From Candidatus Saccharimonadota bacterium (GTDB lineage: Bacteria > Patescibacteriota > Microgenomatia > UBA1406 > GWC2-37-13), in assembly GCA_016432445.1 (NCBI GenBank), contig CP066689.1:570001-602000 (forward strand): a stretch of DNA of 32,000 nucleotides, written 5' to 3'. The notes under the pieces were generated by a model, which worked only from the letters and a program-made list of their open reading frames with translations, did not search any database and had not been told where the DNA came from. Below are positions 943 through 28,566 of this stretch, in pieces. Made by a program: the position numbers and the translations under genes. Numbering within the stretch: the stretch's first letter is position 1; every line of letters begins with the position of its first letter.

Positions 943-2766
943 ATGGGTGATCAAGAAAAGTTCACAAACAAGGTGATTGCTCAGGTTCTCCGCTCTGTTG
1001 CTGCTGCTTATCTTCTTAAAGGGGAAAACCGTTTTAAAATAATAGCTTATGATAATGCCGCTGGTACAGTTGAGCATATGAACCGCGAACTTAAAGATAT
1101 CTGGCAGGAAGGAAAAATACATGATGTGCCTGGGATTGGTCCATCAATATCCGAACATCTGACCGAGTACTTTAAAAAAGGCCACTCCAGTCATTTTGAC
1201 CGGATCTTAAAAGGAATTCCGTCTGCAGTTTTTACCTTAATGAATGTTTCGTTTATAGGACCAAAAAGAGCTTTAAAACTTGTAAAAGCACTACATCTTT
1301 TTAATTCTGATACAGCCATAAATGACCTTAAAGAAGCTTGCCTAAGTGATAAAGTATCCAAGATTCCAACATTCGGAAAAAAGTCTCAGGATGACATACT
1401 TTTGTCGATTGAACTTTATGAGCAAAGCACTAAAAAAACCGAAAGAATGCCCTTGCCTTATGCTTCTGAGCTGGCTCAAGAAGTAGTGGAATATCTTAAA
1501 AAACTTCCATGGGTAATCCGAGCTGACGCTTTAGGTTCTTTACGGCGGATGGTGGCAACTGTAGGCGACATTGATGTCGCAGTTGCCGCTGAAGATAAAA
1601 ATGCCAGTTTGATAATTGATAAATTTATTAATTTCCCCCGAATGATAAGAGTTGATAATGCGGGCGGGAAAAAAGCTTCAATTATTGTTAGTCCAAACAT
1701 AAGAGTTGATTTAAGAACTCAATCACCGGCTACATACGGATCAATGCTTCAGTATCTTACCGGCAGCAAATCACACAATATTAAGTTAAGGGAGTATGCG
1801 CTAAAAAAGGGTTATTCATTATCTGAGTATGGTTTGAAACCTTTGAAGAAAATTCAAAATTCAAATGTCAAATTTCAAAATTACAATTCAAAATCCAAAA
1901 TTTTAGAGTTTAAGGATGAACCTTGGCTTTATAATTTTTTAGGACTGGATTATATTGAGCCTGAGCTCAGGGAAGGGACAGATGAAATAGATATAGCTTT
2001 AAAACATGATCTGCCTGTGTTAGTTAACACGGAAGATATTAAAGGAGATATGCATGTTCACTCTTCCTACGATCTTCAGCCGTCACATGATAGGGGTGCT
2101 AATAGTTTTGAAGAAATGATTGAAAAAGCAATAGAACTTAAATATAAGTATATTGGTTTTAGTGAACATAACCCTCGTCAGGGATTAGGAGCTGATGAGA
2201 TGATAAAAATTCTTAAAAAAAGAAAAGAGAATATTGAAAATATTTTCAAAAAGAAAAAATATAATTTAAATTATTTTATTGGGCTGGAAGTAGACATTTT
2301 GCCAAATGGGGAATTAGCCATTCCTAAAAAAGCTTTAGATTATCTGGATTATATTGTTGCTTCAGTTCATAGTTCCTTTAGGATAAATAGTAAAGATATG
2401 ACCAAAAGAATTCTTAAAGCTTTAAGCTTTCCGAAAGTAAAAATACTCGGTCATCCGACAACCAGGCTTTTGGGAAAGCGTGAGGGTATTGATGCTGACT
2501 GGGAACAAATTTTTAAAGAAACAAAGAAAAGAAATATTGCCTTGGAGATTAATTCTTTCTATGACCGCTTGGATCTTCCTGATACATTAGTTAAATTAGC
2601 TTTAAATAACGATAATTTGTTAATTATTAATACCGATTCTCACTTTGTTGAATCAATGGAATATATGGTGTATGGAGTTTCAGTAGCCCGCCGTGGTTGG
2701 GCAACAAAAAATGATATAATTAATACTAGAGAGTATAATGAAGTTAGAGAGTGGATAGGAGTTTAA
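943..2766 (+). CDS. polX: family X DNA polymerase with C-terminal PHP phosphoesterase domain (PolX)
   Basis: The Pol-beta-like core includes [17 protein letters not shown]. The PHP motifs are [17 protein letters not shown] and INTDSH. The 607-aa length is typical. Confidence 0.9.
1851..1904 (+). repeat. heptamer-periodic repeat arm (ANTTCAA type) read in-frame inside polX
   Basis: The units are aattcaa aattcaa atgtcaa atttcaa aattaca attcaaa atccaaa. They translate as [19 protein letters not shown]. The block resembles the left arm of the hairpin at 2765-2788. Confidence 0.7.
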
Positions 2767-3404: not shown

Positions 3405-4297
3405 TGACAGTCTATAACCAAATTTCAACAAATAAACTGAAGACGTACTTGATAATCTTTATTTTTATTCTGTTGATGTCAGGTTTCTTTTTTATAATTG
3501 GGAAATTTTTCCAAAATCCGGGTCTCTACTTTGCAATCGGTATATCTTTTTCTTTAATTTCGTCTCTTGGCAGTTATTTTTACTCCGATAAAATAGTGCT
3601 TTTTACAACAGGCGCAAAGCCAGCCAGTAAAAAAGAACACTTTAATTTTTATACCGTGACGGAAAATTTGGCTATTGCCACAGGCATGCCAATGCCTAAA
3701 TTGTATGTGATGGATGATCAGTCAATGAATGCTTTTGCGACAGGACGTGATCCTAAGCATGCGGTGGTAGCGGCAACTACTGGTCTTTTGGAAAGATTAG
3801 ACAGGGCCGAGCTTGAAGGAGTCATCGCTCATGAATTGTCGCACATAAAAAATTATGATATTTTGCTGGCTTCAATTGTCGCGGTACTTGTTGGAACTAT
3901 TGCTCTTGTTTCTGACTGGATTATGAGGAGTTTGTGGTGGAGAGGTAATGATGACCGAAGAGAAAACAGAAGTCCGCTACTATTTGTTCTATTAATAATA
4001 GCACTAATTTTAACTCCAATTGTGGCGACATTAATTCAACTTACCGTTTCAAGAAAGCGAGAGTTTTTGGCTGATGCAACCGGAGCTTTAATAACCCGTT
4101 ACCCTGAAGGATTGGCTCGCGCCCTTGAGAAAATATCAGGAGACAGGCATGTCTCAACTCACGCTACATCTTCAACCGCCCATCTTTTTATTGCTAATCC
4201 TTTTAAAAAAGGAAAAGGAACAGGCAGTTGGTTGGCTTCACTTTTTTCAACACATCCTCCAGTTGAAGAAAGAATTAGGATTTTAAGAAATCTATAA
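3404..4297 (+). CDS. htpX: M48 family zinc metalloprotease HtpX
   Basis: It has the HELSHIKNYD (HExxH) motif, multiple TM helices and the C-terminal STHPPVEERI motif. The start overlaps the lemA stop (TAATG). Confidence 0.9.
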   Translation: MTVYNQISTNKLKTYLIIFIFILLMSGFFFIIGKFFQNPGLYFAIGISFSLISSLGSYFYSDKIVLFTTGAKPASKKEHFNFYTVTENLAIATGMPMPKLYVMDDQSMNAFATGRDPKHAVVAATTGLLERLDRAELEGVIAHELSHIKNYDILLASIVAVLVGTIALVSDWIMRSLWWRGNDDRRENRSPLLFVLLIIALILTPIVATLIQLTVSRKREFLADATGALITRYPEGLARALEKISGDRHVSTHATSSTAHLFIANPFKKGKGTGSWLASLFSTHPPVEERIRILRNL

Positions 4298-4335
4298 CAA
4301 TTATAATTGTTATAACGATTATAACTGTTATATTT
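4293..4335. repeat. TTATAAC-type palindromic repeat
   Basis: There is a perfect 22-nt palindrome tataacaattataattgttata (4293-4314) overlapping the htpX stop, followed by acgattataactgttata. It shares the 15-mer gttataacgattata with 21194-21208. Confidence 0.75.
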
Positions 4336-5243: not shown

Positions 5244-5376
5244 GTGAAGATTGCCAAACAAGAGAGATCTTTGATCTGAGATCTTAGATTCTGGATATTT
5301 GATTTTCGACTATCGAGTATCTAAGATCAAAGATCTAACATCTAAGATCTTAATTCTCTTCTTTGGCAGGCTTCAC
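5244..5376. repeat. long imperfect hairpin with an AGATCTN heptamer-repeat core
   Basis: The outer stem is gtgaagattgccaaa (5244-5258) paired with tttggcaggcttcac (5362-5376), 13/15 bp. The core 5265-5350 is built of agatctt/tgatctg/agatctt/agattct units and their complements. Confidence 0.7.
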
Positions 5377-5430
5377 GAAAGGGAGAGAGTTTATTTACAT
5401 TCTGCACAGTTTTTCAAAGTGCTCGATTTG

Positions 5431-5473
5431 CAAAAAATAAAGCCATAGAAAGCTTTTATCTAGGGCTTTTTTA
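5431..5473 (-). terminator. intrinsic (bidirectional-looking) terminator after the receiver gene
   Basis: The stem is agccatag (5441-5448) paired with ctagggct (5460-5467), with one mismatch. It is flanked by an A-run (5432-5437) and a T-run (5467-5472). Confidence 0.5.
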
Positions 5474-5498
5474 TATGCTTATAGGGTATTATAGCAGA

Positions 5499-5981
5499 TT
5501 AATAAGCTCTTTCACCGTTTATGCGAGGTTGTCCATTTTTTGTTTCTTTGTTAATTTCGTCGTTTAATTCCTGATCAGGTTCCTCGTTTACTAATTTAAT
5601 CAGATCATCAATGTCGAAAGGTTTACGAAGAATATAATCTTTAGTTTCAGCAGTCATCTTTTCTATTTCTTTTTCAACTAAAGCTGTTAAAATCACCACT
5701 CTTCTGTCTTTCATGCATGGTTTATCAGGATTTGTTGTTGATTTAAAAAAATCCCACATACTTCCAGATGTTGAATCGACTGACCATAAGATTACGTTAG
5801 GATCAAAGCTTAATATAAAAGCTTCATATTCCGCTTCTTTTCCTAAAAAATCGCTGGTCATTGCCGATTGAACATTGTACCCTTCTGTATTAAGTAACAT
5901 CTCAATCATTTCTATTTCAGCCGGGTTATTGTCAAATACGGCTACTTTTTTCGCCGCCATAGTCGGCTGGTTAGGATCCAT
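5499..5981 (-). CDS. stand-alone CheY-like receiver domain protein (atypical acidic pocket)
   Basis: Receiver landmarks are KKVAVFDNN (DN instead of DD), ILWSVD (candidate phospho-Asp), VVILTA and LRKPFDIDDL (conserved Lys). There is no output domain. Confidence 0.7.
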   Translation of the reverse strand: MDPNQPTMAAKKVAVFDNNPAEIEMIEMLLNTEGYNVQSAMTSDFLGKEAEYEAFILSFDPNVILWSVDSTSGSMWDFFKSTTNPDKPCMKDRRVVILTALVEKEIEKMTAETKDYILRKPFDIDDLIKLVNEEPDQELNDEINKETKNGQPRINGERAY

Positions 5982-6084
5982 GATTTAACCCTACATTAAA
6001 CAAGTTAGGAAAAAATAGCAATACTGTAAGAATTAAGAAAGAAATCAATTTTTATCGGGAAATATTGTTATAATAATGAACACT

Positions 6085-8790
6085 ATGTGTGGGATTGCGG
6101 GATTTTACGGTTTCAGAAATGATGACCTTATCAAAAAAATCTCCAAGGAACTCGAGCATCGGGGACCTGATGGCGAGGGCTTCTTAATTGATGAAAAAGT
6201 AACTCTTCTTAATAGGCGATTGGCTATAATTGACCGCAAGGGCGGAGATCAGCCAATCTACAATGAGGATAAAACCCTGTCAGTGGTTTACAACGGAGAG
6301 ATTTACAACTACCAGGCACTACGAAAAGAGCTTGAGGAAAAGGGTCACAAGTTTTCAACGAATTCCGATACTGAAATAATAGTTCACGGTTATGAAGAAT
6401 GGAAAGACGAATGTTTTGACAAGTTTAATGGTATGTTTGCTATTGCGCTATATGATTTAAAAAATCAGGAACTCATCTTAGTTCGTGATCATTTCGGAAT
6501 AAAACCGCTGTATTATTCGATGATTAATGAAAATAATTTAATTTTTTCATCTGAAATAAAACCAATCATAAATTCCGGATTAATTAAAAAAGAGCCAAAC
6601 GATAAGATCATATACCGGTATCTTAATTACAGGGTGCATGACGATCAAAAGGAAACTTTTTTTAAGGATGTGCACAAACTGATGCCGGGGGAGATGATGG
6701 TGATTCAGGATTCAGGATTCAAGATTCAAGAATTTTCTAGTTTAGAAAAGACACTTATGTCATTTCGAACCCCGAGTTTATCGAGGGGTGAGAAATCTAG
6801 CGATAGCGCTTCGCTGGATTTCTCGCCTTCGGCTCGAAATGACAAAGATAGCATTATTGAGTTTCGTAATAAACTAACCGAGTCGATACGCTTAAGACTA
6901 ATTTCTGAAGTACCTGTGGGAACATGCTTATCTGGAGGCTTGGATTCTTCAACTGTTGTTGCGATAGTTAACAAACTTCTTAAGGAAAAAGTAAAAGAGG
7001 CTGAGTCAGTCGGAAAAAAACAAAATACTTTTTCGGCTGTTTTTCCAAACTCTTCTAATAATGAGGAAAAATATATTGATACATTAATTTCAAATTTTAA
7101 ATTTCAAATTTCAAATTATAAAATTTATCCTAAGGCAGAAGAATTTTTTGTTGAACTTGAAGATTTTTTAAAGACTCAGGAAGAGCCGACTATAAGTACT
7201 GGTCCTTATGCTCAGTATAAGGTCATGCAAGAGGCGCATAAGCAAGTTACTGTTCTTCTTGATGGCCAAGGCTCAGATGAGATGATGGCTGGATATTTGC
7301 CATATTACTTTGTTTATTTGAACCAGCTAAAAAAAGAAGGAAAATTTTTAACGCTAGTTAAAGAGATTATTGGATCATTAGATATTCTTACGAAATTTTT
7401 TTATCAAAAAACATTATTTTTTATTGGTTTTAAAAAATATATCTTGCCAAGATTATTGATGAATAAAGAGTTTGCGGAAAGATATAAAGAGCAAAGATTT
7501 GTAATGACAAATGACAATCTCAAAAAGCGGTTGATTGAAGATATTTTTCACAATAGCTTACCTTCACTGCTTCGTTATGAAGATAAAAACTCAATGCGTT
7601 TTTCTATTGAAGGACGCGTGCCTTTTTTGGATTTTAATCTTTTAAAATATATTTTTAGCTTGGATGATAAGGCAATTATTGATGGAGGTTGGAATAAAAA
7701 TATCTTAAGAGGAGCTGTCAAAGATCTTTTACCTGAGATTATAACCAAAAGACGAAATAAGATAGGGTTTACTACCCCCGAACAGGAATGGTTTTTAAAA
7801 ATGAAAAATAGGATTTATTCACTTTTCATGAGTGAATCTTTTGCAAAAAGACCATATTTTAATCAGCCGGAGATATTAAAAAAATTTCAAAAGTTTATCG
7901 AGGGCAAGACAGATGACACCATGGTTTTTTGGCGGATACTTAATTTGGAAATGTGGTTAAGAATTTTCTTTGACCCATCTCCAATGATTCATAAGACAAA
8001 AGAAAGATCAATATTCTCTCCTAATGCGGGTAAGAAATTAGAAATTACGATAGGGACAGGCCGCGACCTGTCCGTACAGCAATCGTATTTCCGTTTTCCA
8101 ATCAAAACTGAAATTTTTCAAAAAGGCGATGATGTTTCTAAAAAAGTTATCAAACATATAAATATATTCTTGCGGCAGTTTGAAAATAAAGTTCAGTTTA
8201 AAAAATTGCAGGACAAAGATTGGTTTATAGTTTTATCAGAAAAGATTGTAGCCATTTCTCAAGGCAGGTCTTACTTTATCTGGGATATTAAACCGGGGTT
8301 TTGGGCTAAGACTTTATCAAGGTTTGTTAAGAGAACTCCTTATGGTATTGGGTTGGGAAGTCCGTGGACAATGCAGTTGGCAATAGGCGAGATTGGGGTG
8401 GTTAGGGTAATATTAGCGTCAATATTAGGGGTATTAGGAAGATTGGTGGGGGCTAGGGGGATTTTTTATATAGTTGCCGGTAATAATATTAGGGCGATTG
8501 ATGGGCCTACAGAATATTCTCTTTATCCATCAAATGTCTCAGCAAAACTGGCTCCAAAAAATCCTCAAAAAGCCGCAAAGGCTATTCATGAAGATGTTAT
8601 AAAATCTTTACCCAAAACAAAAACTAAAAACTTTCAAGGTATAGTAATAATTGACGCTAATGATTTAGGAAGAAACGTTTTAGGCAACTCTACCAGATAC
8701 AATGACAGATTAGTTGAACAGATCTTTAAAGATAATCCAATGGGGCAATCCGGTGAACAGACTCCATTGACAATAGTTTATAGTATTTAG
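6085..8790 (+). CDS. fusion protein: glutamine-hydrolysing asparagine synthetase-like (AsnB family) N-terminal ~640 aa plus CofE-like (F420-0:gamma-glutamyl ligase family) C-terminal ~240 aa
   Basis: The MCGIAGF Ntn-amidotransferase nucleophile requires Cys as residue 2, so I start at ATG 6085 rather than 6076. The PP-loop is CLSGGLDSSTVVAI. The C-terminal part carries KGDDVSKKVI, IVLSEKIVAISQGR, GIVIIDANDLGR and NPMGQSGEQTPLTIV, which match my recollection of CofE-family motifs. Confidence 0.85.
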   Translation: MCGIAGFYGFRNDDLIKKISKELEHRGPDGEGFLIDEKVTLLNRRLAIIDRKGGDQPIYNEDKTLSVVYNGEIYNYQALRKELEEKGHKFSTNSDTEIIVHGYEEWKDECFDKFNGMFAIALYDLKNQELILVRDHFGIKPLYYSMINENNLIFSSEIKPIINSGLIKKEPNDKIIYRYLNYRVHDDQKETFFKDVHKLMPGEMMVIQDSGFKIQEFSSLEKTLMSFRTPSLSRGEKSSDSASLDFSPSARNDKDSIIEFRNKLTESIRLRLISEVPVGTCLSGGLDSSTVVAIVNKLLKEKVKEAESVGKKQNTFSAVFPNSSNNEEKYIDTLISNFKFQISNYKIYPKAEEFFVELEDFLKTQEEPTISTGPYAQYKVMQEAHKQVTVLLDGQGSDEMMAGYLPYYFVYLNQLKKEGKFLTLVKEIIGSLDILTKFFYQKTLFFIGFKKYILPRLLMNKEFAERYKEQRFVMTNDNLKKRLIEDIFHNSLPSLLRYEDKNSMRFSIEGRVPFLDFNLLKYIFSLDDKAIIDGGWNKNILRGAVKDLLPEIITKRRNKIGFTTPEQEWFLKMKNRIYSLFMSESFAKRPYFNQPEILKKFQKFIEGKTDDTMVFWRILNLEMWLRIFFDPSPMIHKTKERSIFSPNAGKKLEITIGTGRDLSVQQSYFRFPIKTEIFQKGDDVSKKVIKHINIFLRQFENKVQFKKLQDKDWFIVLSEKIVAISQGRSYFIWDIKPGFWAKTLSRFVKRTPYGIGLGSPWTMQLAIGEIGVVRVILASILGVLGRLVGARGIFYIVAGNNIRAIDGPTEYSLYPSNVSAKLAPKNPQKAAKAIHEDVIKSLPKTKTKNFQGIVIIDANDLGRNVLGNSTRYNDRLVEQIFKDNPMGQSGEQTPLTIVYSI
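6702..6734 (+). repeat. GATTCAN heptamer repeat arm read in-frame (IQDSGFKIQEF)
   Basis: The units are gattcag gattcag gattcaa gattcaa gaatt. Positions 6709-6734 are identical to 12635-12660 in gatB (26 nt). Confidence 0.9.
7086..7127 (+). repeat. AATTTCA heptamer repeat arm read in-frame (ISNFKFQISNYKIY)
   Basis: The units are aatttca aatttta aatttca aatttca aattata aaattta. This is the same repeat type as 12327-12359. Confidence 0.85.
8041..8091. repeat. GC-rich nested palindrome at the AsnB/CofE domain junction
   Basis: The outer stem is gaaattacgat (8041-8051) with atcgtatttc (8082-8091). The inner stem is ggacagg (8054-8060), loop ccgcga, then cctgtcc (8067-8073). It is read in-frame as EITIGTGRDLSVQQSYF. 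Confidence 0.75.
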
Positions 8791-8805
8791 TATGATATTG
8801 GACTA

Positions 8806-9330
8806 ATGGGAGAAACTGCACGAATAAAAGGGAGCGAACTTCTTAAAACTATGCCTAGTGGAATCAAATCACAAGGAATTTTACTTGTTGATAATGATCA
8901 CGGAATGAATTTATTAAATAAAATGAGATTTGAGGATGAAGGACTTAATGTAGTTGGAGAGGTAGATAATTATTCAAAAGCGCAAGCGCATGTATCCTTA
9001 GGATTATTAGGCATTGCCGTCATAATCTTAGATAGAGATCTTAAGAGCCCAGAGGGGAATGGAGTAGATATATATAAGAAAGTTCAACAAAATCCTGAAC
9101 TAAAAGTAATAACAATAGCCTGTTGTGGTCTCATAGGAGGGGAAAAAGAACCAGGTTATGGAGAATTTTTTGTTCCTAAACCACATGATGAAGAGGATAT
9201 GTTTTTGGCTGTTGCTAATGCCTTGACAGCTGCGCATGTTCTTCAACAAAAAAATAACTCTCATCAATTGGCGGAAAGAAACGAACAAATAAATGCAAAT
9301 CAATCTTCGAGTGAGGGTCTCGTAGCTTAG
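8806..9330 (+). CDS. stand-alone receiver-like domain protein (atypical)
   Basis: Receiver landmarks are ILLVDNDHG, VIILDRDL, VITIA and FVPKPHD. There is no output domain. The start could instead be the internal Met (MPSGIK). Confidence 0.6.
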   Translation: MGETARIKGSELLKTMPSGIKSQGILLVDNDHGMNLLNKMRFEDEGLNVVGEVDNYSKAQAHVSLGLLGIAVIILDRDLKSPEGNGVDIYKKVQQNPELKVITIACCGLIGGEKEPGYGEFFVPKPHDEEDMFLAVANALTAAHVLQQKNNSHQLAERNEQINANQSSSEGLVA

Positions 9331-9373
9331 TAACTAAAAAAACTTCAATGAAAGATTAATGATGTGGTAATAG

Positions 9374-9402
9374 TTGACTTTGACGGTTATTAATCCTATA
9401 AT
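9374..9402 (+). promoter_or_regulatory. near-consensus sigma70 promoter
   Basis: TTGACT (9374-9379), an exact 17-nt spacer, then TATAAT (9397-9402). It lies 145 nt upstream of ATG 9548. Confidence 0.6.
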
Positions 9403-9547
9403 ATGACCCCATGGTATATTCAGGAGCAGGCTGTCAATTATAGAAATCTTGCTGTAGCTGCCTGTTCTATCTCAAAAATTATCATGATTCTTAAGAGAGA
9501 TTAACAAACAAATTATTTTTATAGCTCTAAAAGCGAGAGATTCACTA

Positions 9548-10231
9548 ATGGAAACTAAAAAAGCAAAAGGCGATACTAATCCAATTATTTATATTTGTGG
9601 GTTATCTAAAGGTTGGGGGTTGATGCCAGCCCCTGAGTTTGATGCCGCGAGTAAATTAGAAAAGGGCATACTCCTACCCATGAAATGTTTGAGTTTAGAT
9701 TTAACTCCAGAAGATCAAACTGTAATTTCAAGATACGCCGCTCTAGCTTCCCAAGCGCTGCTGGGTTATGTTGAGGAAGCACGCTCAAGGAATCCTTCAG
9801 TACTCGTAGATAATTTGTTGATTGACCGAGAAAATTTAGTAAAAGAAGATCAAGACTTGGCAGATTTACAAAGAGAAGAAATTTTAGAAGATATATATGA
9901 CCTAAGGTCTGGATTAAGAAATTGCGAACATAGAGTAGCAATTGACGAATATAGATCAACAAAAGATTTATCACCATTTTATAACGAGGTGGCTAGGGAT
10001 AAAGAATTAGAAAGATTTTGTAATATGCTGGGTGAAAATATAAAAGTAACGGAATATGATGATTGTAGCCATCCTATAATGATTCCAACAGGAATTGATG
10101 GGGTAGCTATAAAAGTGGAATTTTTTAGAAAAGAAAAAGGTAGAACCAAAGTAAATTACGGGATTACTTATGGCCAAAGCGCAATAGATATATTAAAAGA
10201 TATGCCTCGATTATTACCAATACTTAAGTAG
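9548..10231 (+). CDS. hypothetical protein (227 aa)
   Basis: A long ORF with acidic, coiled-coil-like central segments. No family recognised. Confidence 0.6.
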   Translation: METKKAKGDTNPIIYICGLSKGWGLMPAPEFDAASKLEKGILLPMKCLSLDLTPEDQTVISRYAALASQALLGYVEEARSRNPSVLVDNLLIDRENLVKEDQDLADLQREEILEDIYDLRSGLRNCEHRVAIDEYRSTKDLSPFYNEVARDKELERFCNMLGENIKVTEYDDCSHPIMIPTGIDGVAIKVEFFRKEKGRTKVNYGITYGQSAIDILKDMPRLLPILK

Positions 10232-10330
10232 TTTTAACATTAAAAGAAATCAACACCGTACGTTGACTGGCCGTAATTTGGAAGTGATTAATTGAAAGTT
10301 TTCTCCTTAAAAATACGCTATAATTGCTTC

Positions 10331-10621
10331 ATGGCGAAGAAAACACTTACAAAAGAAGAAATTATTCATCTTTCAAAATTAGCTAATCTTTCTTTAACAG
10401 AAGAAGAGATTGAAATTTACGGATCACAGCTTAGTGAGATCTTAAGTTATATTGAACAACTGGAAGAGGTGGATACTTCAAAAGTTTCTTCAACTGCTCA
10501 AGTGACTGAACTTAAAAATGTGACAGAAGAAGATGAAGTTAAAGAAGAAAGATCAATCAAAGATTTAGCCGGGCTCAAGGTCAATAAAGATAATTATTTT
10601 ACCGTTAAGAGAATTCGTTAA
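10331..10621 (+). CDS. gatC: Asp/Glu-tRNA amidotransferase subunit C
   Basis: MAKKTLTKEEIIHLSKLANLSLTEEEIEIYGSQLSEILSYIEQLEEVDT is the classic GatC pattern. I use ATG 10331; the track start at 10292 is a TTG extension. gatA follows immediately. Confidence 0.85.
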   Translation: MAKKTLTKEEIIHLSKLANLSLTEEEIEIYGSQLSEILSYIEQLEEVDTSKVSSTAQVTELKNVTEEDEVKEERSIKDLAGLKVNKDNYFTVKRIR

Positions 10622-10622
10622 T

Positions 10623-12002
10623 ATGGATATTTTAAAAGCTTCAATCTCTAAACTTAGACAACTAATAAAGGATAATAAAATATCTTCGGAAGAGATTGTT
10701 GCACAAATTTCTGAAAGAATAAATAAGGAAAATCCAAAATTAAATGCATTGCTGACAGTTGTTGAAAAGCCTGAGGTTAATGAAAACATGAAAGATAAAC
10801 CGCTTTATGGAATTGCTTTTACTTTGAAAGATACTTATGTCACAAAGGGAATAAGAACAACAGCCGGTTCAAGATTGTTAGAGAATTATATTCCTCAATA
10901 CGACGCAACAGTTTATAAAAAACTAAAGGAAGCTGGGGCTGTCCTTATTGGAAAAACCAACTGCGATGCTTGGGGGCATGGATCCTCGACGGAAAATTCG
11001 GATTTTGGTGTTACCAAAAATCCATGGAATCAAGATTATGTTGCTGGAGGATCAAGTGGCGGATCAGCTGCAGCTGTTGCATCTCATTTGAGTCCATTTA
11101 GCATTGGAGAAGATACAGGAGGATCAATAAGACAACCGGCTTCTTTTTGTTCAGTAGTTGGACTAAAGGTTTCTTATGGCTTAGTTTCACGATATGGATC
11201 TATTGCTTATGCGTCGTCTTTAGATACAGTTGGTCCAATCACAAAAACCGTTGAGGACTGCGCTTTGGTACTTGATGTTATTGCTGGTAATGATAATCAG
11301 GATGCCACTACAAATCCGGCTAAACCATCGCATTATAGTAAATCCATAAACAACGATATAAAAGGTTTTAAGATTGGCATTCCCAAAGAATACTTTGTAG
11401 AGGGCATTGATAAAGAAGTTGCTGAACAAGTGGAGAATTCAATAAAGTTATTTAAGAAAATGGGATGTGAGATAGTTGATATAACGATGCCAATGACAAG
11501 ATATGCTTTGTCAACATATTATTTGATCGCCACAAGTGAGACCAGTTCTAATCTTGGCCGTTATGATGGAATAAGATATGGTAACTCAAGAAAAGATTTT
11601 GGAGCTGAAGCTAAAAGGAGAATAATGCTTGGTACTTTTACTCTGTCTGCTGGCTATTATGACGCCTATTACAAAAAAGCTACAAAAGTAAGGACACTTA
11701 TTAAAAATGATTTTGACCAAGCGTTTAAAAAAGTAGATATCATTTTAGCTCCAGTTTCACCAACTCCAGCTTTTAAAATAGGTGAAAAGGTTAATAATCC
11801 ATTACAAATGTATTTATCAGATATTCTTACAATTCCAGTTAATTTAGCTGGTATTCCTGCACTTTCTGTACCTGCCGGATTTACAAAATACAAGTTACCA
11901 GTGGGTGTGCAGCTTATCGGTAATCGATTTGAAGAGGAAAAATTACTAAACATTGGTCATAAATTCGAACAAGAACGGGGAGAGTTACCGTCAATCGATT
12001 AA
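10623..12002 (+). CDS. gatA: Asp/Glu-tRNA amidotransferase subunit A
   Basis: It has the amidase signature GGSSGGSAAAVA and GEDTGGSIRQPASFC. Its size (459 aa) and position between gatC and gatB fit. Confidence 0.95.
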   Translation: MDILKASISKLRQLIKDNKISSEEIVAQISERINKENPKLNALLTVVEKPEVNENMKDKPLYGIAFTLKDTYVTKGIRTTAGSRLLENYIPQYDATVYKKLKEAGAVLIGKTNCDAWGHGSSTENSDFGVTKNPWNQDYVAGGSSGGSAAAVASHLSPFSIGEDTGGSIRQPASFCSVVGLKVSYGLVSRYGSIAYASSLDTVGPITKTVEDCALVLDVIAGNDNQDATTNPAKPSHYSKSINNDIKGFKIGIPKEYFVEGIDKEVAEQVENSIKLFKKMGCEIVDITMPMTRYALSTYYLIATSETSSNLGRYDGIRYGNSRKDFGAEAKRRIMLGTFTLSAGYYDAYYKKATKVRTLIKNDFDQAFKKVDIILAPVSPTPAFKIGEKVNNPLQMYLSDILTIPVNLAGIPALSVPAGFTKYKLPVGVQLIGNRFEEEKLLNIGHKFEQERGELPSID

Positions 12003-12004: not shown

Positions 12005-13399
12005 ATGTATAAATATCAGCCGGTAATTGGTTTAGAAATACACGTAGAGCTTAAGACAAAATCCAAAATGTTTTGTCAGGACAGCGCTGATTATTTTGGA
12101 AAAAAACCGAACACTCATGTTTGTCCTGTCTGTTTAGGCTTACCTGGAGCTTTGCCCGTACCAAACAAAAAGGCCATTGAATGGACTATTCTTATTGGTC
12201 AGGCTTTAAACTGCTCAATAAACAAAGTTTCTAAATTTGACCGTAAACATTATTTCTATCCTGATTTACCCAAGGGATATCAGATTAGTCAGTATGACGA
12301 ACCAATCGCCAGCAATGGCTGGCTAAAATTTCAAATTTCAAATTTCAAATTTCAAATTAAGGAAAAAAAATTTAGGATTCACAGAGTTCATCTTGAAGAA
12401 GATACGGGTAAATTGATTCATTCTGGTTCAGATACATTAGTGGACTTCAATCGTTCTGGCGTTCCATTGGTTGAGATTGTGACTGAACCTGATTTTGATA
12501 ATTCTGATGACGTTAAAAGATTCCTCGAAGAACTTCACACGATTATTCGTTACCTCGGTGTTTCTGATGCGGATATGGAAAAAGGGAGTATGAGACTTGA
12601 GCCGAATATCTCTCTTCGCAAAATTTCGATTCAAGATTCAGGATTCAAGATTCAAGAATTACCAAATTACAAAGTCGAGGTGAAGAATATTAATTCATTT
12701 AATTTTGTAAAACGGGCGATTGAGTATGAGATTAAACGCCAAACTGAGATTCTAGAAAAAGGGGAGACTCCAGCACAAGAAACCAGAGGTTTTGATAGCG
12801 TTAAAGGAATTACTTATAGCCAGCGGTCAAAAGAAGAAGCCCATGATTACCGCTATTTTCCCGAGCCCGACATTCCCCCGCTTGAGTTTACATATAAAGA
12901 GATTGAGGATATAAAAAAAAAGCTTCCCGAACTGCCAAGTGATAAAGAAAAAAGGTTGATAAAGGAGTATAGGTTAAAAGCTCAGGATGCGTTTATATTG
13001 ACAAGAGACTTGAGAATTGCAGATTACTTTGAAAAAGTTACTGATGAGTTTAATAAATTAATGCTGGTTCAGGATAAGGCATCAGTAGACATTGAAAAAC
13101 AACAATCATTAGGTCAAACTATTGCTAATTTAATAGTGAATAAAAGATTATCTACTTCACTAGATCCGGAAGAATTTGCAAAAAAAGCAATAACTTCAAC
13201 AGTAACTTATATTGCAGATAGAGAAAAAATGGATAAAGCAGTGAGTAAGGTAATCGATGATTTTCCTAAAGCAGTCGAAGATTATAAAGCAGGAAAAACA
13301 AATTCGATTATGTTTTTGGTTGGTCAAGTAATGAAAGAAATGAAAGGACAAGTAGACGCCAATACTGTTAAGAAAAAACTGATTAAAATATTAAAATAA
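12005..13399 (+). CDS. gatB: Asp/Glu-tRNA amidotransferase subunit B
   Basis: Conserved blocks are VIGLEIHVELKTKSKMF, KFDRKHYFYPDLPKGYQISQ, HLEEDTGK, DFNRSGVPLVEIV and DYRYFPEPD, plus the C-terminal GatB/YqeY tail. Confidence 0.95.
   Translation: MYKYQPVIGLEIHVELKTKSKMFCQDSADYFGKKPNTHVCPVCLGLPGALPVPNKKAIEWTILIGQALNCSINKVSKFDRKHYFYPDLPKGYQISQYDEPIASNGWLKFQISNFKFQIKEKKFRIHRVHLEEDTGKLIHSGSDTLVDFNRSGVPLVEIVTEPDFDNSDDVKRFLEELHTIIRYLGVSDADMEKGSMRLEPNISLRKISIQDSGFKIQELPNYKVEVKNINSFNFVKRAIEYEIKRQTEILEKGETPAQETRGFDSVKGITYSQRSKEEAHDYRYFPEPDIPPLEFTYKEIEDIKKKLPELPSDKEKRLIKEYRLKAQDAFILTRDLRIADYFEKVTDEFNKLMLVQDKASVDIEKQQSLGQTIANLIVNKRLSTSLDPEEFAKKAITSTVTYIADREKMDKAVSKVIDDFPKAVEDYKAGKTNSIMFLVGQVMKEMKGQVDANTVKKKLIKILK
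12327..12359 (+). repeat. AATTTCA heptamer repeat arm read in-frame in gatB (KFQISNFKFQIK)
   Basis: aatttca x4 followed by aatta; direct reading. Confidence 0.9.
12628..12660 (+). repeat. GATTCAN heptamer repeat arm read in-frame in gatB (IQDSGFKIQEL)
   Basis: The units are gattcaa gattcag gattcaa gattcaa gaatt. There is 26-nt identity with 6709-6734, in the same reading phase. Confidence 0.9.
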
Positions 13400-13402: not shown

Positions 13403-13449
13403 GATTCAAGATTCACGATTCATGAATCTTAAATCTTGAATCATGAATC
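13403..13449. repeat. GATTCA-type palindromic hairpin between gatB and dnaE
   Basis: gattcaagatt (13403-13413) pairs with aatcttgaatc (13432-13442). The inner stem is gattca/tgaatc (13417-13428). An extra atgaatc unit supplies the ORF-track ATG at 13443. Confidence 0.85.
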
Positions 13450-13460
13450 AAAAAATAAAT

Positions 13461-21159: not shown

Positions 21160-22620
<1,461 letters not shown>

Positions 22621-22624: not shown

Positions 22625-22678
22625 GATTCACGATTCATGAAACATGATTCATGAATCTTAAATCGTGAATCATAAATC
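22625..22678. repeat. GATTCA-type palindromic hairpin between atpD and atpC
   Basis: gattcacgatt (22625-22635) pairs with aatcgtgaatc (22661-22671). The inner stem is gattca/tgaatc (22646-22657). Confidence 0.85.
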
Positions 22679-22690
22679 AATTTTAAACAT

Positions 22691-23112: not shown

Positions 23113-25143
23113 ATGACTTTAATTATTGTTGAATCACCGACTAAGGCTAGGACATTTAACCGTATATTAAAAGGTGAGGACTACTATGTATTTGCAACCA
23201 TGGGACACATAAGAGACCTTCCAGCAAGCGCATTATCTATTGATTATGCCCATAAGTTTAAGCCTAATTACCAAATTATAAAAAATAAACAGAAAACCGT
23301 TGATCAGCTCATGAAACTGGCTAAACAAAATGATGAGATTATTTTAGCGACAGATCCTGATCGTGAAGGGGAATCTATCGCGTATCATGCGGCTTATTTA
23401 ATAGGTCTGATAAAAGAGAAGTGGCCTGAGTTTAAGATCGATAAAAAACATCCACTCAAAAGAATCGTTTTTCACGAGATTACTCCTCATGCTTTAAAAG
23501 AAGCGTTAGAGCATCCAAGCACATTAAGATTGGACTTAGTTAAGGCTCAGCAGGCAAGGCGGATCTTAGATAGGGTAGTTGGCTATGAGATCTCTCCCCT
23601 ACTTTGGAAAAAAATGGGAAAAAACTGGCTTTCAGCCGGTAGAGTTCAGTCAGTAGCTTTGCGGCTTGTTGTCGAAAGAGAGAAAGAAATTAGAGTCTTT
23701 AAGGACGAAGGTTATTATCAGATTTATGGAAACTTTAATAAAAAAGAACCATTAAAGGCGAAGCTTGTTTCAAAAGATCAAGTTCCTTACGAACAGAAAT
23801 TCACTTTGCATTTGTTTGCCGGAGAATATCAGTACACCAAAACAACAATCGAAAAATCTAATGTCGATGAAATTAAAAAGAACGCAGAGACTGATAAATA
23901 TATCGTAAAGGAGATTAAAGAAGAAATTAAACCTAAGTATCCTCCACCTCCGTTTACAACTTCTTTGCTTCAGCAGGAATCTTTTCACCGCTTTGGGTTC
24001 TCATCAAGAATGACTATGAGAATAGCTCAGGATCTTTATGAAAGAGGTTTAATTACTTATCATCGAACTGATTCTTTTAATTTATCAACTCAGTTTGTTT
24101 TTAAAGCGAAAGATTTTATAGAAAAAACTTTTGGCAAAGAGTATGCCCTTGAAAAACCAAGAGGCTTTCGAACAAAATCAAAGATGGCTCAGGAAGCGCA
24201 CGAGGCTATAAGACCAACGCATTTGGAGAAATCAGCTGACTCCATGGCAGTAGATAAAAAAATCACTCAAAACCATAAAAAAGTTTACAAACTTATATTT
24301 GACCGCGCTCTTTCGACACAAATGAAAGAAGCTCAAGTTAAACATATCAAAATAGTTATTGCCGGTAAAAAAGGATATGCGTTTGAGTCTGAGGTGCAGC
24401 AGGTTATTTTTGATGGTTTTTTAAAAGTTCTTAATCCAGAATATGCAGGAAAAAAACAAAGCTTAGCTCGTCTTAAAGAAAATGATCCAGTTGATTTGCT
24501 ATCATTGGAAGTTCAAGAATGTAAAACTAATCCCCCGCCGAGGTTTAATGAAGCCTCACTTATTAAAATATTAGAAGAAAAAGGAATTGGTAGGCCATCT
24601 ACTTACGCGCCTATTATTTCTCTTATTCAGGACAAAAATTATGTTGAAAAGGAGTTTAGATATTTCGTACCGACTAAACTTGGAGAGGTAATCTCGAATT
24701 ATTTGGCCGAGTCTTTTCCGGATATTTTTTCACTTGAGTTTACAGCCCAGATGGAGCAAAGCTTAGATGAAATTGCTGATGGGCAAAAAGATATGGTTCA
24801 AACCTTGTCTGATTTTTATAATCCTTTTGAGAAACATTTAAAGATTATGAAGCTTGACAAAAAAACAATAGATGTAGAGGAAGTGGTTGATGAAAAATGC
24901 GAGAAGTGCGCAAGTGCTATGGTTGTCCGTTATTCAAAGTTTGGTAAATTTATGGCCTGCAGTAAATATCCTCAATGTAAATTTACTAAACCTTTTTTGA
25001 ATTTTGTAAAAGATAAATTTTGCCCAGAGTGTGGAGGTAGGATGACAGCCAGAATGACTAAAACCAGGAAAAGATTCTACGGATGCGAAAATTATCCGAA
25101 GTGTAAATATTCGTCTTGGACACTCAAGCCAACAAAGAAATGA
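23113..25143 (+). CDS. topA: DNA topoisomerase I
   Basis: It has the Toprim motifs LIIVESPTKA and DPDREGE, the active-site Tyr context ITYHRTDS, and C-terminal Cys4 zinc ribbons (CEKC..C..C; CPECGG..C..C). Confidence 0.95.
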   Translation: MTLIIVESPTKARTFNRILKGEDYYVFATMGHIRDLPASALSIDYAHKFKPNYQIIKNKQKTVDQLMKLAKQNDEIILATDPDREGESIAYHAAYLIGLIKEKWPEFKIDKKHPLKRIVFHEITPHALKEALEHPSTLRLDLVKAQQARRILDRVVGYEISPLLWKKMGKNWLSAGRVQSVALRLVVEREKEIRVFKDEGYYQIYGNFNKKEPLKAKLVSKDQVPYEQKFTLHLFAGEYQYTKTTIEKSNVDEIKKNAETDKYIVKEIKEEIKPKYPPPPFTTSLLQQESFHRFGFSSRMTMRIAQDLYERGLITYHRTDSFNLSTQFVFKAKDFIEKTFGKEYALEKPRGFRTKSKMAQEAHEAIRPTHLEKSADSMAVDKKITQNHKKVYKLIFDRALSTQMKEAQVKHIKIVIAGKKGYAFESEVQQVIFDGFLKVLNPEYAGKKQSLARLKENDPVDLLSLEVQECKTNPPPRFNEASLIKILEEKGIGRPSTYAPIISLIQDKNYVEKEFRYFVPTKLGEVISNYLAESFPDIFSLEFTAQMEQSLDEIADGQKDMVQTLSDFYNPFEKHLKIMKLDKKTIDVEEVVDEKCEKCASAMVVRYSKFGKFMACSKYPQCKFTKPFLNFVKDKFCPECGGRMTARMTKTRKRFYGCENYPKCKYSSWTLKPTKK

Positions 25144-25217
25144 TTCACGATTCATGATGCATGATTCATGAATCTTCTTGAATCCTGAATCGTGAATCTT
25201 GAATCAAGTGTTTTTTT
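25142..25217 (+). terminator. GATTCA-type nested hairpin followed by T7: likely topA terminator
   Basis: gattcacgattca (25142-25154) pairs with tgaatcgtgaatc (25186-25198). The inner stem is gattca/tgaatc (25163-25174), followed by ttttttt (25211-25217). The element begins inside the topA stop codon. Confidence 0.7.
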
Positions 25218-26914: not shown

Positions 26915-26975
26915 GATTCAAGATTCACGATTCAGGATTCAAGAAGTTTTATTCATGAATCATTAATCATGAATC
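26915..26975. repeat. GATTCA-type imperfect hairpin between pyrG and rplS
   Basis: The left arm is gattcaa gattcac gattcag gattcaa. The right arm is ttcatgaatcattaatcatgaatc, which contains the ORF-track ATG at 26969. Confidence 0.75.
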
Positions 26976-26989
26976 TAGTTTCAAAAAAT

Positions 26990-27328: not shown

Positions 27329-27332
27329 TTTC

Positions 27333-27698: not shown

Positions 27699-27700
27699 AA

Positions 27701-27797
27701 AATTCCAAAATCCAAATTTCAAATATCAAAAGATTTTGTAATTTAGATTTTGAGCTTTGGATTTGTTTTGTTATTTGAATTTTGACATTCGGATTTA
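27701..27797. repeat. AAATCCA/CAAAT-type composite hairpin after yraN
   Basis: The left arm is ttccaaaatccaaatttcaaatatcaaaag, and complementary arms follow. Positions 27773-27796, reverse-complemented, match 2765-2788 at 23/24 nt. Confidence 0.8.
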
Positions 27798-27824
27798 ATT
27801 TTATCGAGGGGGGGTGAAAAAATA

Positions 27825-28475: not shown

Positions 28476-28495
28476 CTTGCTTAGAACTCTCAAAA

Positions 28496-28527
28496 ACATA
28501 TGCGCCTTTACGGTGCATATGTTTTTT
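28496..28527 (+). terminator. intrinsic terminator
   Basis: acatatgc (28496-28503) pairs with gcatatgt (28515-28522), followed by tttttt. Confidence 0.75.
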
Positions 28528-28566
28528 CTCCAAAATTTCTTACGTATTTAATTTATTCATTTCAGA

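What the first reader, a model, noticed from the sequence alone, without database searches (positions are those of the whole stretch)
6702..7127. The same two repeat types, in the same phase, sit inside the asnB-like gene, with 26 nt identical to gatB
6709-6734 (gattcaggattcaagattcaagaatt) is identical to 12635-12660 in gatB and is read in the same phase (QDSGFKIQE in both proteins). About 350 nt downstream, 7086-7127 is an AATTTCA-type block (ISNFKFQISNYKIY), like gatB 12327-12359. Two unrelated genes therefore each carry one copy of both repeat types, though in opposite order (GATTCA then AATTTCA here; AATTTCA then GATTCA in gatB). Nucleotide identity between unrelated coding genes points to recent DNA-level insertion, conversion or slippage rather than protein-level convergence.
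Basis: seen in the sequence. Interest (0 to 1): 0.7.

Follow-up and report, generated by a model that had tools for sequence, protein, structure and literature searches.

The report
In-frame 7-base repeats inside housekeeping genes
Two unrelated essential enzymes of an uncultured Roizmanbacteria bacterium carry short runs of the same 7-base repeats that also build hairpins between its genes, so a known kind of bacterial microsatellite is here being written, in frame, into conserved proteins.

Summary
The 26-nt identity extends to 33 nt with one mismatch (6702-6734 vs 12628-12660), in the same codon phase. AATTTCA-type arrays are in both genes.

It is not private to these two genes. The window (Candidatus Roizmanbacteria MAG) carries GATTCAN arrays at four intergenic sites, as inverted arrays that fold into hairpins. 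AAATTYC-type arrays also lie in a PolX-like gene and an intergenic region.

Across 1.34 Mb from 80 related Microgenomates loci plus the window, period 7 dominates short tandem repeats (96 arrays, against 18 for period 8 and 1 for period 6). About 75% lie inside ORFs.

In GatB both tracts sit in loops of hypervariable length, +9 and +7 aa over the basal form. Many genomes carry arrays of other units at the same two sites.

In the AsnB-like gene neither tract is an insertion. Six of 23 genomes compared (the window and five orthologs) carry an array at the same position, register and length but with different units. Units are more alike within a genome than between genomes.

Best reading: a dispersed heptanucleotide microsatellite family (like cyanobacterial STRRs and Mrázek's LSSRs). 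It evolves in concert by slippage plus exchange between arrays and is tolerated in frame at hairpins and loops. DNA-level origin is supported; "recent insertion" holds only for gatB.

The parts
6076..8790 (+). AsnB-like ORF (904 aa): GATase_7 and Asn_synthase domains plus a C-terminal F420_ligase-like domain. Host of tracts A and B.
   Evidence: Pfam. Syntenic orthologs lie upstream of gatCAB in more than 20 loci. An identical protein is found in three Logan assemblies.
6702..6734 (+). Tract A: four GATTCAR heptamers plus GAATT (33 nt), encoding V209-F220 (VIQDSGFKIQEF). It covers a hairpin-length segment at the end of the glutaminase domain and adds no length.
   Evidence: Length equals that of all 22 orthologs and aligns to 7ylz 'PGTVIEFDRNGL'. 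Arrays at the same position with other units occur in L023, L021, L016, L002 and L007.
7086..7127 (+). Tract B: AATTTCA-type array (5.7 copies, 85% matches), encoding L337-Y351 (LISNFKFQISNYKIY). It is not an insertion (0-1 aa difference from orthologs).
   Evidence: The same position carries arrays of other units in L029 (AAAGTCA), L016 and L023.
12005..13399 (+). gatB ORF (464 aa).
   Evidence: Pfam. PDB hits 3h0l, 3al0 and 2df4 at E 1e-124 to 1e-101. 100% match to an NCBI Roizmanbacteria GatB.
12326..12358 (+). gatB site 1: AAATTTC x4.7 (33 nt, perfect), residues 108-118 (KFQISNFKFQI). It forms the tip of a beta-hairpin that is 9 aa longer than the basal form.
   Evidence: AF2 model: strands E102-112 and E118-132, block pLDDT 83-95.
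12628..12660 (+). gatB site 2: four GATTCAR heptamers plus GAATT (33 nt), 32/33 identical to tract A. It encodes residues 208-219 in a surface loop 7 aa longer than the basal 12-aa form.
   Evidence: AF2 model: coil 207-223, block pLDDT 66-85.
13403..13449 (.). Intergenic inverted GATTCAN / NTGAATC arrays between gatB and dnaE; hairpin.
   Evidence: dG -14.9 kcal/mol, z -3.75; family D1.
22625..22679 (.). Intergenic inverted GATTCAN arrays between the ATP synthase beta and epsilon genes; hairpin.
   Evidence: (dG -18.8, z -3.46).
25140..25205 (.). Inverted GATTCAN arrays starting at the topA stop codon (ORF ends 25143). The hairpin is followed by T7 and looks like an intrinsic terminator.
   Evidence: dG -30.4, z -4.83.
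26915..26975 (.). Intergenic inverted arrays between pyrG and rplS. The left arm (four heptamers plus GAAGT) is 88% identical to tract A.
   Evidence: (dG -23.6, z -5.67).
27699..27796 (.). Intergenic AAATTYC-type array followed by inverted copies. Same unit family as tract B and gatB site 1.
   Evidence: family D3, 88%. The fold is not significant (z -0.74).
1848..1902 (+). AAAATTC-type array (7.9 copies, 79% matches) in frame inside the PolX-like ORF 943-2766 ([18 protein letters not shown]). This is a third gene carrying the family.
5264..5350 (.). Intergenic inverted arrays of a third unit (AGATCTN); hairpin.
   Evidence: dG -34.7, z -3.85.

Best explanation
The tracts are members of a dispersed family of heptanucleotide simple-sequence repeats. 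This is the same kind of sequence as cyanobacterial STRRs and the period-7 'long SSRs' of Mrázek et al. 2007. Such repeats pervade Roizmanbacteria and other Microgenomates genomes.

Shown here:
- Period 7 is by far the commonest tandem-repeat period in this clade.
- Arrays occur between genes as inverted pairs that fold into hairpins. One of these looks like an intrinsic terminator.
- Arrays occur inside genes as single-arm, unstructured, in-frame tracts.
- Each genome has its own preferred units.
- Arrays at the same position in different genomes keep position, register and length but differ in unit.

Inferred:
- Arrays arise and turn over by replication slippage.
- Short-patch exchange between arrays of one genome (ectopic conversion or template switching) homogenises units genome-wide. 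This is how asnB tract A, gatB site 2 and four intergenic hairpins come to share GATTCAN.
- Selection then filters. Only the stop-free orientation survives in ORFs.
- Only total lengths that keep the frame survive, which freezes copy number in coding arrays.
- Only tolerant places survive, namely beta-hairpin tips and surface loops. There the A/T-rich units encode alternating polar and hydrophobic 7-aa periods such as NFKFQIS and DSGFKIQ.
- In gatB the arrays lengthened two hot-spot loops. In the asnB-like gene an old array occupies a hairpin of unchanged length and has been re-homogenised to the genome's current unit.
- The coding tracts probably have no function of their own. The intergenic hairpins plausibly act as terminators or REP-like mRNA 3'-end stabilisers.
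For: Period-7 dominance:
- TRF on 1.34 Mb (80 GatB-centred loci plus the window), arrays of at least 3 copies and score at least 40: period 7 = 96, period 8 = 18, period 9 = 16, period 6 = 1.
- TRF-independent count of perfect arrays of at least 3 copies: period 7 = 30, against 3, 5 and 4 for periods 6, 8 and 9. Shuffles gave 0.

DNA-level origin:
- 33 nt with one mismatch shared by asnB and gatB.
- The same unit occurs in four intergenic hairpins.
- Hairpins fold with z -3.5 to -5.7, while the coding tracts do not (z +1.1 and -0.5).

Genome-specific units:
- Array pairs with at most 1 mismatch: 22% within a locus against 11% between loci, 0 of 1000 permutations reaching this.
- Without the window: 20.9% against 11.1%, 0 of 1000. 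With matched GC count: 40% against 17%.

Concerted evolution at one position (asnB site A):
- Units are GATTCAR (window), AATTCAG x4 (L023), AATTMAG (L021), AATTMAA (L016), AAATTCG (L002) and AAAWTAA (L007), all in the same register and with the same length.
- The window differs from L023 by the same A-to-G change in every unit.
- Array-bearing orthologs group together in a poorly resolved NJ tree.
- The site-A unit matches another array in the same locus in 9 of 32 pairs, against 11.6% between loci (p = 0.009).

Independent replicate: in L029, asnB site B and gatB site 1 both carry AAAGTCA arrays.

Hot-spot loops: gatB sites 1 and 2 vary from 0 to about 40 extra aa. They carry arrays of unrelated units in many genomes.

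Structure: the site-1 tract is a confident beta-hairpin tip and the site-2 tract is a loop.

Orientation filter: 85 of 106 coding arrays have a stop-free sense unit, and for 46 of these the antisense unit contains a stop.

Background: heptanucleotide SSR excess and a polymerase-slippage hypothesis are described for other bacteria (PMC4679880 introduction; PMC4692102).
Against: - No copy-number polymorphism was seen. Three Logan assemblies encode an identical AsnB-like protein, and the two fetched match the window exactly in DNA, so slippage is inferred, not observed.
- Exchange between arrays is inferred only from unit sharing. Without the window, the site-A test is only suggestive (5 of 20, p = 0.07). 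Composition may inflate within-genome similarity.
- Slippage alone does not explain how asnB arrays replaced segments without changing length.
- Slippage alone does not explain why array lengths peak at 30-33 nt.
- The intergenic copies form a roughly 70-nt palindromic family (family D1). This looks more like a dispersed element than a plain microsatellite.
- Gene calls for the coding/intergenic split were crude ORF picks.
- Only 32 kb of a 1.1-Mb genome was examined.
Confidence: 0.6

Rival explanations
1. Active miniature mobile element. The unit of spread would be the roughly 50-70-nt intergenic palindrome (REP/REPIN- or MITE-like). The coding tracts would be half-elements, or roughly 33-nt cassettes, inserted by a dedicated enzyme.
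For: - Five intergenic copies form one 70-nt family that shares even its 'variable' positions (AAGATTCACGATTCATGA, family D1).
- The left arm of 26915-26947 has the same layout as the coding tracts, four heptamers plus GAAGT (88%).
- Array lengths peak at 30-33 nt.
- In L028 and L012 arrays are interrupted by small GC-rich palindromes, showing that these sites accept insertions.
- Contigs of independent assemblies break at the arrays.
Against: - asnB tracts add no length, which an insertion would.
- Arrays at one position differ in unit between genomes at constant length and register.
- No transposase, RAYT or reverse transcriptase was found among the 20 window ORFs scanned.
- No target-site duplication or conserved non-repeat termini are visible.
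- Insert lengths at gatB site 2 are not quantised.
Confidence: 0.17
2. Independent local microsatellite birth at each site by slippage only, with no exchange between loci. Shared units would reflect base composition and coding constraints.
For: - Heptamer SSR excess is widespread in bacteria and is attributed to polymerase slippage.
- GATTCAR arrays occur in many unrelated metagenomic organisms with GC 31-68%.
- Units are mostly A/T-rich, as is the genome.
Against: - A 32/33 identity that includes the pattern of variable seventh bases and the broken last unit GAATT.
- Seven GATTCAN sites in 32 kb, against about 0.2 pattern matches expected by chance (20 observed).
- Within-genome unit similarity persists after matching GC count (40% against 17%).
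- The same substitution appears in every unit at asnB site A.
Confidence: 0.13
3. The tracts are functional cis-elements in DNA or mRNA. Candidates are binding sites for a repeat-binding regulator, contingency (phase-variation) loci, or ribosomal frameshift or pause sites, since AAATTTC fits the X XXY YYZ slippery pattern.
For: - TAACTGA heptamer repeats in Beggiatoaceae were proposed to be sites for post-transcriptional regulators.
- The asnB site-A array has been retained as an array across species.
- Own knowledge: A AAT TTC matches the slippery-site pattern.
Against: - The host genes are essential housekeeping enzymes, where on/off switching would be harmful.
- Unit sequences are not conserved between genomes at the same site, which argues against a sequence-specific binding site.
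- The coding tracts have no structure.
- Many orthologs lack arrays altogether.
- There is no alternative ORF downstream in other frames.
Confidence: 0.06
4. Protein-level convergence or selection for similar hairpin peptides, or an assembly artefact.
For: Both tract types encode beta-strand-like alternating peptides, and they sit in hairpins or loops.
Against: - 7-nt rather than 21-nt periodicity, with identity at synonymous sites.
- The same units occur in non-coding DNA.
- Arrays are shorter than a sequencing read, and the frames are intact.
- Independent assemblies match the window exactly over asnB.
- Equivalent arrays occur in dozens of independent MAGs.
Confidence: 0.02

Closest known systems
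Heptanucleotide long simple sequence repeats (LSSRs) of prokaryotes (Mrázek, Guo & Shah 2007, as summarised in PMC4679880 and PMC4692102)
   Same: Tandem 7-nt units are the most abundant repeat period. Distribution between lineages is sporadic. A slippage origin is proposed.
   Different: In that survey, coding regions preferentially held units whose length is a multiple of three. Here about 75% of period-7 arrays lie inside ORFs, including essential enzymes, in frame and at positions shared between species.
Cyanobacterial STRRs and G-rich GGGNATC / GGGGAYT heptamer repeats of Xanthomonas and Nostoc (PMC4692102)
   Same: Genome-specific heptamer units and intergenic arrays, some arranged as inverted repeats able to form stem-loops. 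Length and sequence vary between close relatives at the same intergenic site.
   Different: Those repeats are G-rich, form quadruplexes and are intergenic. The units here are A/T-rich, do not form G4 and are mostly coding. They occur in a CPR lineage with a roughly 1-Mb genome.
TAACTGA direct repeats of Beggiatoaceae, Cyanobacteria and Bacteroidetes (MacGregor 2015, PMC4679880)
   Same: Heptamer direct repeats of 2-6 copies are dispersed through a genome. One orientation is excluded from ORFs by stop codons. A few in-ORF copies encode a cyclic 7-aa peptide (LSVISYQ).
   Different: That case is a single conserved unit, mainly just upstream of start codons. Its in-ORF copies sit at protein termini or in hypothetical proteins. 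Here there are many units per clade, inside the conserved cores of GatB, AsnB-like and PolX-like proteins.
REP / REPIN elements (PMC3116915)
   Same: The intergenic copies are short dispersed palindromes at gene ends or between genes of an operon. They are potential mRNA-stabilising or terminator hairpins.
   Different: No RAYT gene was seen and there is no GTAG-type conserved head. The arms are built from iterated heptamers, and single arms occur in coding DNA.
In-frame tandem repeats of Borg elements (PMC9879509)
   Same: Fast-evolving tandem repeats arise independently and add new segments to proteins.
   Different: From my own recollection of that paper, not checked here: in-ORF unit lengths in Borgs are divisible by three and give disordered regions. 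Here the unit is 7 nt, so the peptide period needs three units. The tracts replace or extend beta-hairpins and loops.

Membership tests
Prokaryotic heptanucleotide SSR / STRR-type repeats | Head-to-tail tandem copies of a 7-nt unit, at least 3 copies | tested here: met
   TRF: 6702-6728 x3.9, 7086-7126 x5.7, 12326-12358 x4.7, 12628-12657 x4.3.
Prokaryotic heptanucleotide SSR / STRR-type repeats | Period 7 over-represented relative to neighbouring periods in the genome or lineage | tested here: met
   96 arrays for period 7, against 1, 18 and 16 for periods 6, 8 and 9. Perfect arrays: 30 against 3, 5 and 4, with 0 in shuffles.
Prokaryotic heptanucleotide SSR / STRR-type repeats | Predominantly intergenic location | tested here: not met
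   106 of 142 arrays lie inside crude ORF calls, 25 are intergenic and 11 are at gene edges. Density per base is still about 2-3 times higher outside ORFs.
Prokaryotic heptanucleotide SSR / STRR-type repeats | Copy-number variation between strains (slippage) | tested here: inconclusive
   Independent Logan assemblies show no variation over asnB and over 26939-32000. No reads were available, and no relative closer than 67% GatB identity was found.
REP / REPIN | Extragenic palindromes dispersed in many copies | tested here: met
   Five-copy 70-nt palindromic family in 32 kb (family D1), with significant folds. This applies to the intergenic copies only.
REP / REPIN | Associated RAYT (IS200/IS605-like tyrosine transposase) | not testable with these tools
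   None among the 20 window ORFs scanned with Pfam. The rest of the 1.1-Mb genome was not available.
MITE | Terminal inverted repeats plus a target-site duplication flanking a discrete insert | tested here: not met
   The coding tracts are single-arm direct arrays without terminal inverted repeats. By eye, the flanks show no duplication. asnB tracts add no length.
Contingency (phase-variation) SSR loci | An out-of-frame unit in an ORF of a dispensable or surface function, with a variable copy number that switches expression | tested here: not met
   The hosts are GatB, an AsnB-like enzyme and a PolX-like protein. The asnB arrays have identical length in 23 genomes.
In-frame amino-acid tandem repeats (Borg type) | Unit length divisible by three | tested here: not met
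   The unit is 7 nt. The frame is kept only through the total tract length.

The most novel reading that the evidence does not exclude
Microgenomates may possess an active, genome-specific process that writes or overwrites patches of about 33 nt of heptamer array. Possible routes are template switching at the intergenic heptamer hairpins, or a dedicated recombinase or retroelement using a 'master' array. Such a process would make gene-end hairpins. It would also remodel beta-hairpins and loops of essential proteins without changing their length. That would be a previously unrecognised engine of protein-loop evolution in CPR bacteria, and a handle on why 7 nt is the favoured bacterial repeat unit.
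Probability: 0.15. Interest if true: 0.8.

Novelty: new variant of a known kind. Interest (0 to 1): 0.5.

Why it matters
Heptanucleotide repeats have been known since 2007 to be the commonest long microsatellite class in several bacterial groups, but their origin and role remain unexplained. They were thought to avoid coding DNA because 7 is not a multiple of 3.

This lineage shows the opposite. Arrays sit in frame inside highly conserved enzymes, and they recur at the same loops in many genomes. One example is retained at the same position across species while its unit changes in concert with the rest of the genome.

This gives a natural experiment on three questions:
- Slippage versus conversion, since frame-locked coding arrays can be compared with free intergenic ones.
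- A concrete source for the many unexplained insertions in CPR proteins.
- A caution for annotation and phylogenetics, because low-complexity 7-aa periodic segments in CPR housekeeping proteins come from repeat DNA and are not homologous between genomes.

Tried and rejected
- **Metagenome scan for GATTCAR x3.** It returned more than 120 hits from organisms with GC 31-68%. The unit is therefore not lineage-specific, and the scan gave no close strains.
- **Exact-protein look-ups.** GatB, the PolX-like protein and L19 found nothing, so no independent assembly covers the gatB tracts.
- **In-frame growth in +21-nt steps.** I considered this as an explanation for the 30-33-nt length mode. Extra lengths at gatB site 2 range from +2 to +42 aa with no preference for multiples of 7, so I dropped it.
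- **Error.** I counted the L012 array 6133-6167 as asnB site A, but it is site B. The statistic was recomputed without it. The region of L012 around site A contains a scaffold gap.
- **Search for copies of the asnB palindromic insert.** blastn-short against the window and 80 loci found no other copy at E <= 1e-3. The resemblance to inserts in L065 and L078 rests on visual comparison only.
- **Rfam at gathering thresholds.** Nothing was found at any array. The only hit was a tRNA at 28589-28662.
- **Terminator scan.** It flagged only the 13403-13435 hairpin, on the minus strand. The pattern requires loops of 3-8 nt and at least 3 G-C pairs, so it is poorly suited to these A/T-rich stems.
- **Elhai et al. 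2008.** This paper on small dispersed repeats nested in cyanobacterial heptamer arrays could not be read. Any comparison with it is from memory.
- **Literature searches.** They found no description of heptamer repeats in CPR, Microgenomates or Roizmanbacteria. Absence from this library is not proof of novelty.


Full report
**1. The observation**

The 26-mer GATTCAGGATTCAAGATTCAAGAATT is present exactly at 6709-6734 and 12635-12660. None is expected in shuffles of the window. The match is really 33 nt with one mismatch, 6702-6734 against 12628-12660, made of four GATTCAR units plus a broken unit GAATT.

Both copies lie in the same codon register of their ORFs and are translated as IQDSGFKIQE. 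TRF confirms period-7 arrays at 6702-6728, 7086-7126, 12326-12358 and 12628-12657.

ORF 6076-8790 is an AsnB-like protein with GATase_7 and Asn_synthase domains and a C-terminal F420-ligase-like domain. ORF 12005-13399 is GatB.

Three independent Logan assemblies from other runs encode the identical 904-aa AsnB-like protein. The two I fetched are 100% identical in DNA to window 5321-11790 and 5321-9958. The asnB tracts are therefore not an artefact of one assembly.

'Same phase' is weak evidence. Because 7 and 3 are coprime, every frame of a heptamer array gives the same cyclic 7-aa peptide. The antisense strand of both units contains TGA, so only one orientation can be coding.

**2. The tracts are not private to the two genes**

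- GATTCAN arrays also occur at 13403-13449, 22625-22679, 25140-25205 and 26915-26975. At each of these a direct array is followed by its inverted copy.
- AAATTYC-type arrays also occur in frame in a PolX-like gene (1848-1902), at 2763-2794, and in the intergenic region 27699-27796.
- A third unit, AGATCTN, builds an inverted array at 5264-5350.
- As RNA, the intergenic inverted arrays fold far better than shuffles, with z from -3.5 to -5.7. The one starting at the topA stop codon is followed by T7.
- The two coding GATTCAR tracts do not fold (z +1.1 and -0.5).
- No Rfam family matches any array.
- The five GATTCAN intergenic matches (four sites, one matched in two registers) form a single family of about 70 nt (family D1).

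**3. Source organism and relatives**

The GatB protein is 100% identical to one from a Candidatus Roizmanbacteria MAG (Microgenomates, CPR) on a 1.10-Mb contig. The next relatives are only about 67% identical. I fetched 80 GatB-centred loci from species-representative genomes of Roizman-, Gottesman- and Woesebacteria.

**4. A clade-wide property**

- In 1.34 Mb (loci plus window), tandem arrays of at least 3 copies are overwhelmingly of period 7: 96 arrays, against 18 for period 8, 16 for period 9 and 1 for period 6.
- A TRF-independent count of perfect arrays gives 30 for period 7, against 3, 5 and 4 for periods 6, 8 and 9. Shuffles gave none.
- Array density varies from 0 to 10 per 10 kb among genomes.
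- Of 142 period-7 arrays, 106 lie within crude ORF calls, 25 are intergenic and 11 are at gene edges. Per base they are still 2-3 times denser outside ORFs.
- Units differ between genomes (AAAACTC, AAAATTA, AAATTCG, AAAGTCA and others) but are more alike within a genome.
  - Pairs with at most 1 mismatch: 22% within a locus against 11% between loci, with 0 of 1000 permutations reaching this.
  - Without the window: 20.9% against 11.1%. With matched GC count: 40% against 17%.

**5. GatB: insertions at two hot-spot loops**

Against solved GatB structures, the site-1 tract lies in a segment 4-5 aa longer and the site-2 tract in one 8 aa longer.

Both sites are hypervariable in length among 120 homologs and 79 loci.
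- Site 1 has a basal 9 aa, against 18 aa here.
- Site 2 has a basal 12 aa in 28 of 79 loci, against 19 aa here. Other genomes carry up to about 40 extra residues.

Many genomes carry heptamer arrays of unrelated units at exactly these two sites. Examples are AAATTCG, AGTCAAA, AAAACTC, AAAAATC, AAAGTCG, AAATCCC, AAGCTCA and AAGTTCA.

An AlphaFold model (mean pLDDT 85) places the site-1 tract at the tip of a confident beta-hairpin, strands 102-112 and 118-132. It places the site-2 tract in a loop, residues 207-223.

**6. The AsnB-like gene: no insertion, but an old array that changes in concert**

Neither tract adds length relative to 22 syntenic orthologs (at most 1 aa at site B) or to PDB 7ylz/1ct9.

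Tract A (V209-F220) covers a hairpin-length segment that aligns with 7ylz 'PGTVIEFDRNGL'.

In five related genomes the same position, register and length is occupied by a heptamer array with a different unit. The units are AATTCAG x4 in L023, AATTMAG in L021, AATTMAA in L016, AAATTCG in L002 and AAAWTAA in L007. The array is decayed in L029 and L033 and absent in more distant orthologs.

The window differs from L023 by the same A-to-G change in every unit. Independent point mutation cannot plausibly do that. The derived unit is the one used by the window's intergenic hairpins and by gatB site 2.

Array-bearing orthologs group together in a poorly resolved NJ tree.

The site-A unit matches another array in the same locus in 9 of 32 pairs, against 11.6% between loci (p = 0.009). 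Without the window the result is only suggestive: 5 of 20, p = 0.07.

Site B behaves similarly. In L029, asnB site B and gatB site 1 both carry AAAGTCA arrays.

**7. Mechanism**

Shown:
- The periodicity is at the DNA level.
- One unit family is dispersed across coding and non-coding sites.
- Units are genome-specific.
- The array at asnB site A stays at one position across genomes while its unit changes in concert.
- Only the stop-free orientation occurs in ORFs.
- The tracts sit in hairpins and loops.

Inferred:
- Slippage generates and turns over arrays. This is the hypothesis of Mrázek et al. 2007, as cited.
- Short-patch exchange between arrays homogenises units within a genome.
- The frame constraint freezes coding arrays, because a change of one unit is a frameshift.
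- Selection leaves arrays only where a 7-aa periodic, alternating polar and hydrophobic peptide is harmless.
- The intergenic inverted arrays probably serve as terminators or REP-like 3'-end hairpins. One lies inside the ATP synthase operon, which favours a stabiliser or attenuator role over strict termination.

Still unexplained:
- The 30-33-nt mode of array length.
- How arrays came to occupy asnB segments without a change in length.

These two points, together with the 70-nt intergenic family, keep a mobile-element or active 'array-writing' mechanism alive as a rival.

**8. Comparison with known systems**

The closest known systems are prokaryotic heptanucleotide LSSRs, cyanobacterial STRRs, the GGGNATC repeats of Xanthomonas and Nostoc, and the TAACTGA repeats of Beggiatoaceae.

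Shared features are the unit length, genome-specific units, inverted intergenic arrangements and exclusion of one orientation from ORFs.

The differences are these:
- Most arrays here are coding.
- They sit in the conserved cores of essential enzymes.
- They recur at the same positions across species.
- They occur in a CPR lineage.

Literature searches found no description of this in CPR.

The tracts fail the defining features of three other families:
- Contingency loci: the hosts are essential and the lengths are fixed.
- MITEs: there are no terminal inverted repeats or target-site duplications, and no added length in asnB.
- Borg-type in-frame repeats: the unit is not a multiple of 3.

**9. 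Verdict**

A DNA-level origin holds. 'Insertion' holds only for gatB. For asnB the array is old and has been homogenised.

This is a new variant of a known kind of repeat. It is of moderate interest, chiefly as a tractable case for the unexplained bacterial preference for 7-nt repeats and as a source of CPR protein insertions.

Noticed in passing
window 6758-6848: An in-frame palindrome of about 91 nt lies inside the AsnB-like gene. Its ends are GTCATTTCGA...TCGAAATGAC, and the 116-nt segment 6745-6860 containing it folds at -49.4 kcal/mol as RNA. It encodes roughly SFRTPSLSRGEKSSDSASLDFSPSARNDK and is absent from all 22 orthologs. By eye, similar GC-richer palindromic inserts sit in GatB loops of L065, L078, L001, L036 and L041. 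This looks like a second, MITE-like class of in-frame insert.
   Followed up: partly
window 4293-4332 and 21160-21208: Intergenic arrays of a 9-nt unit TATAACNNT (18-nt super-period) lie after the M48 peptidase gene and between the ATP synthase gamma and beta genes. This is a separate two-site repeat family.
   Followed up: no
window 6076-8790; L002, L007, L016, L021, L023 and others: The AsnB-like protein is fused to a C-terminal F420-0:gamma-glutamyl ligase-like domain (Pfam E 6e-9). It is conserved about 3 kb upstream of gatCAB in more than 20 Roizmanbacteria loci. Its real activity may not be asparagine synthesis.
   Followed up: no
window 5321, 26939, 27798 (starts of Logan contigs L205, L201, L203): Independent short-read assemblies of the same population are 100% identical to the window, but three contigs begin inside or at the edge of heptamer arrays. 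The arrays therefore break assembly graphs.
   Followed up: partly
L028 gatB site 1 (~10315-10385); L012 asnB site A (~5756-5810): Heptamer arrays are interrupted by a small GC-rich palindrome (for example AAATTCG x3, then CCCGCCCTGAGCGAGGCCGAAGGG, then AAATTCG). From memory only, this resembles the small dispersed repeats nested in cyanobacterial heptamer arrays.
   Followed up: no
all loci; window arrays 6702-6734, 12326-12358, 12628-12660: Period-7 array lengths peak sharply at 30-33 nt, about 4.3-4.7 units (47 of 106 coding arrays and 9 of 25 intergenic). They do not decline monotonically with length. This is unexplained.
   Followed up: partly
window 13443-13464: The mechanical dnaE ORF starts at 13443, inside the hairpin. 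The conserved PHP N-terminus MSFVHLHVH starts at 13464, which is the likelier start codon.
   Followed up: no
window 12326-12358, 7100-7113: The unit AAATTTC has the X XXY YYZ form of -1 ribosomal frameshift slippery sites. I saw no downstream stimulatory structure or alternative ORF.
   Followed up: no
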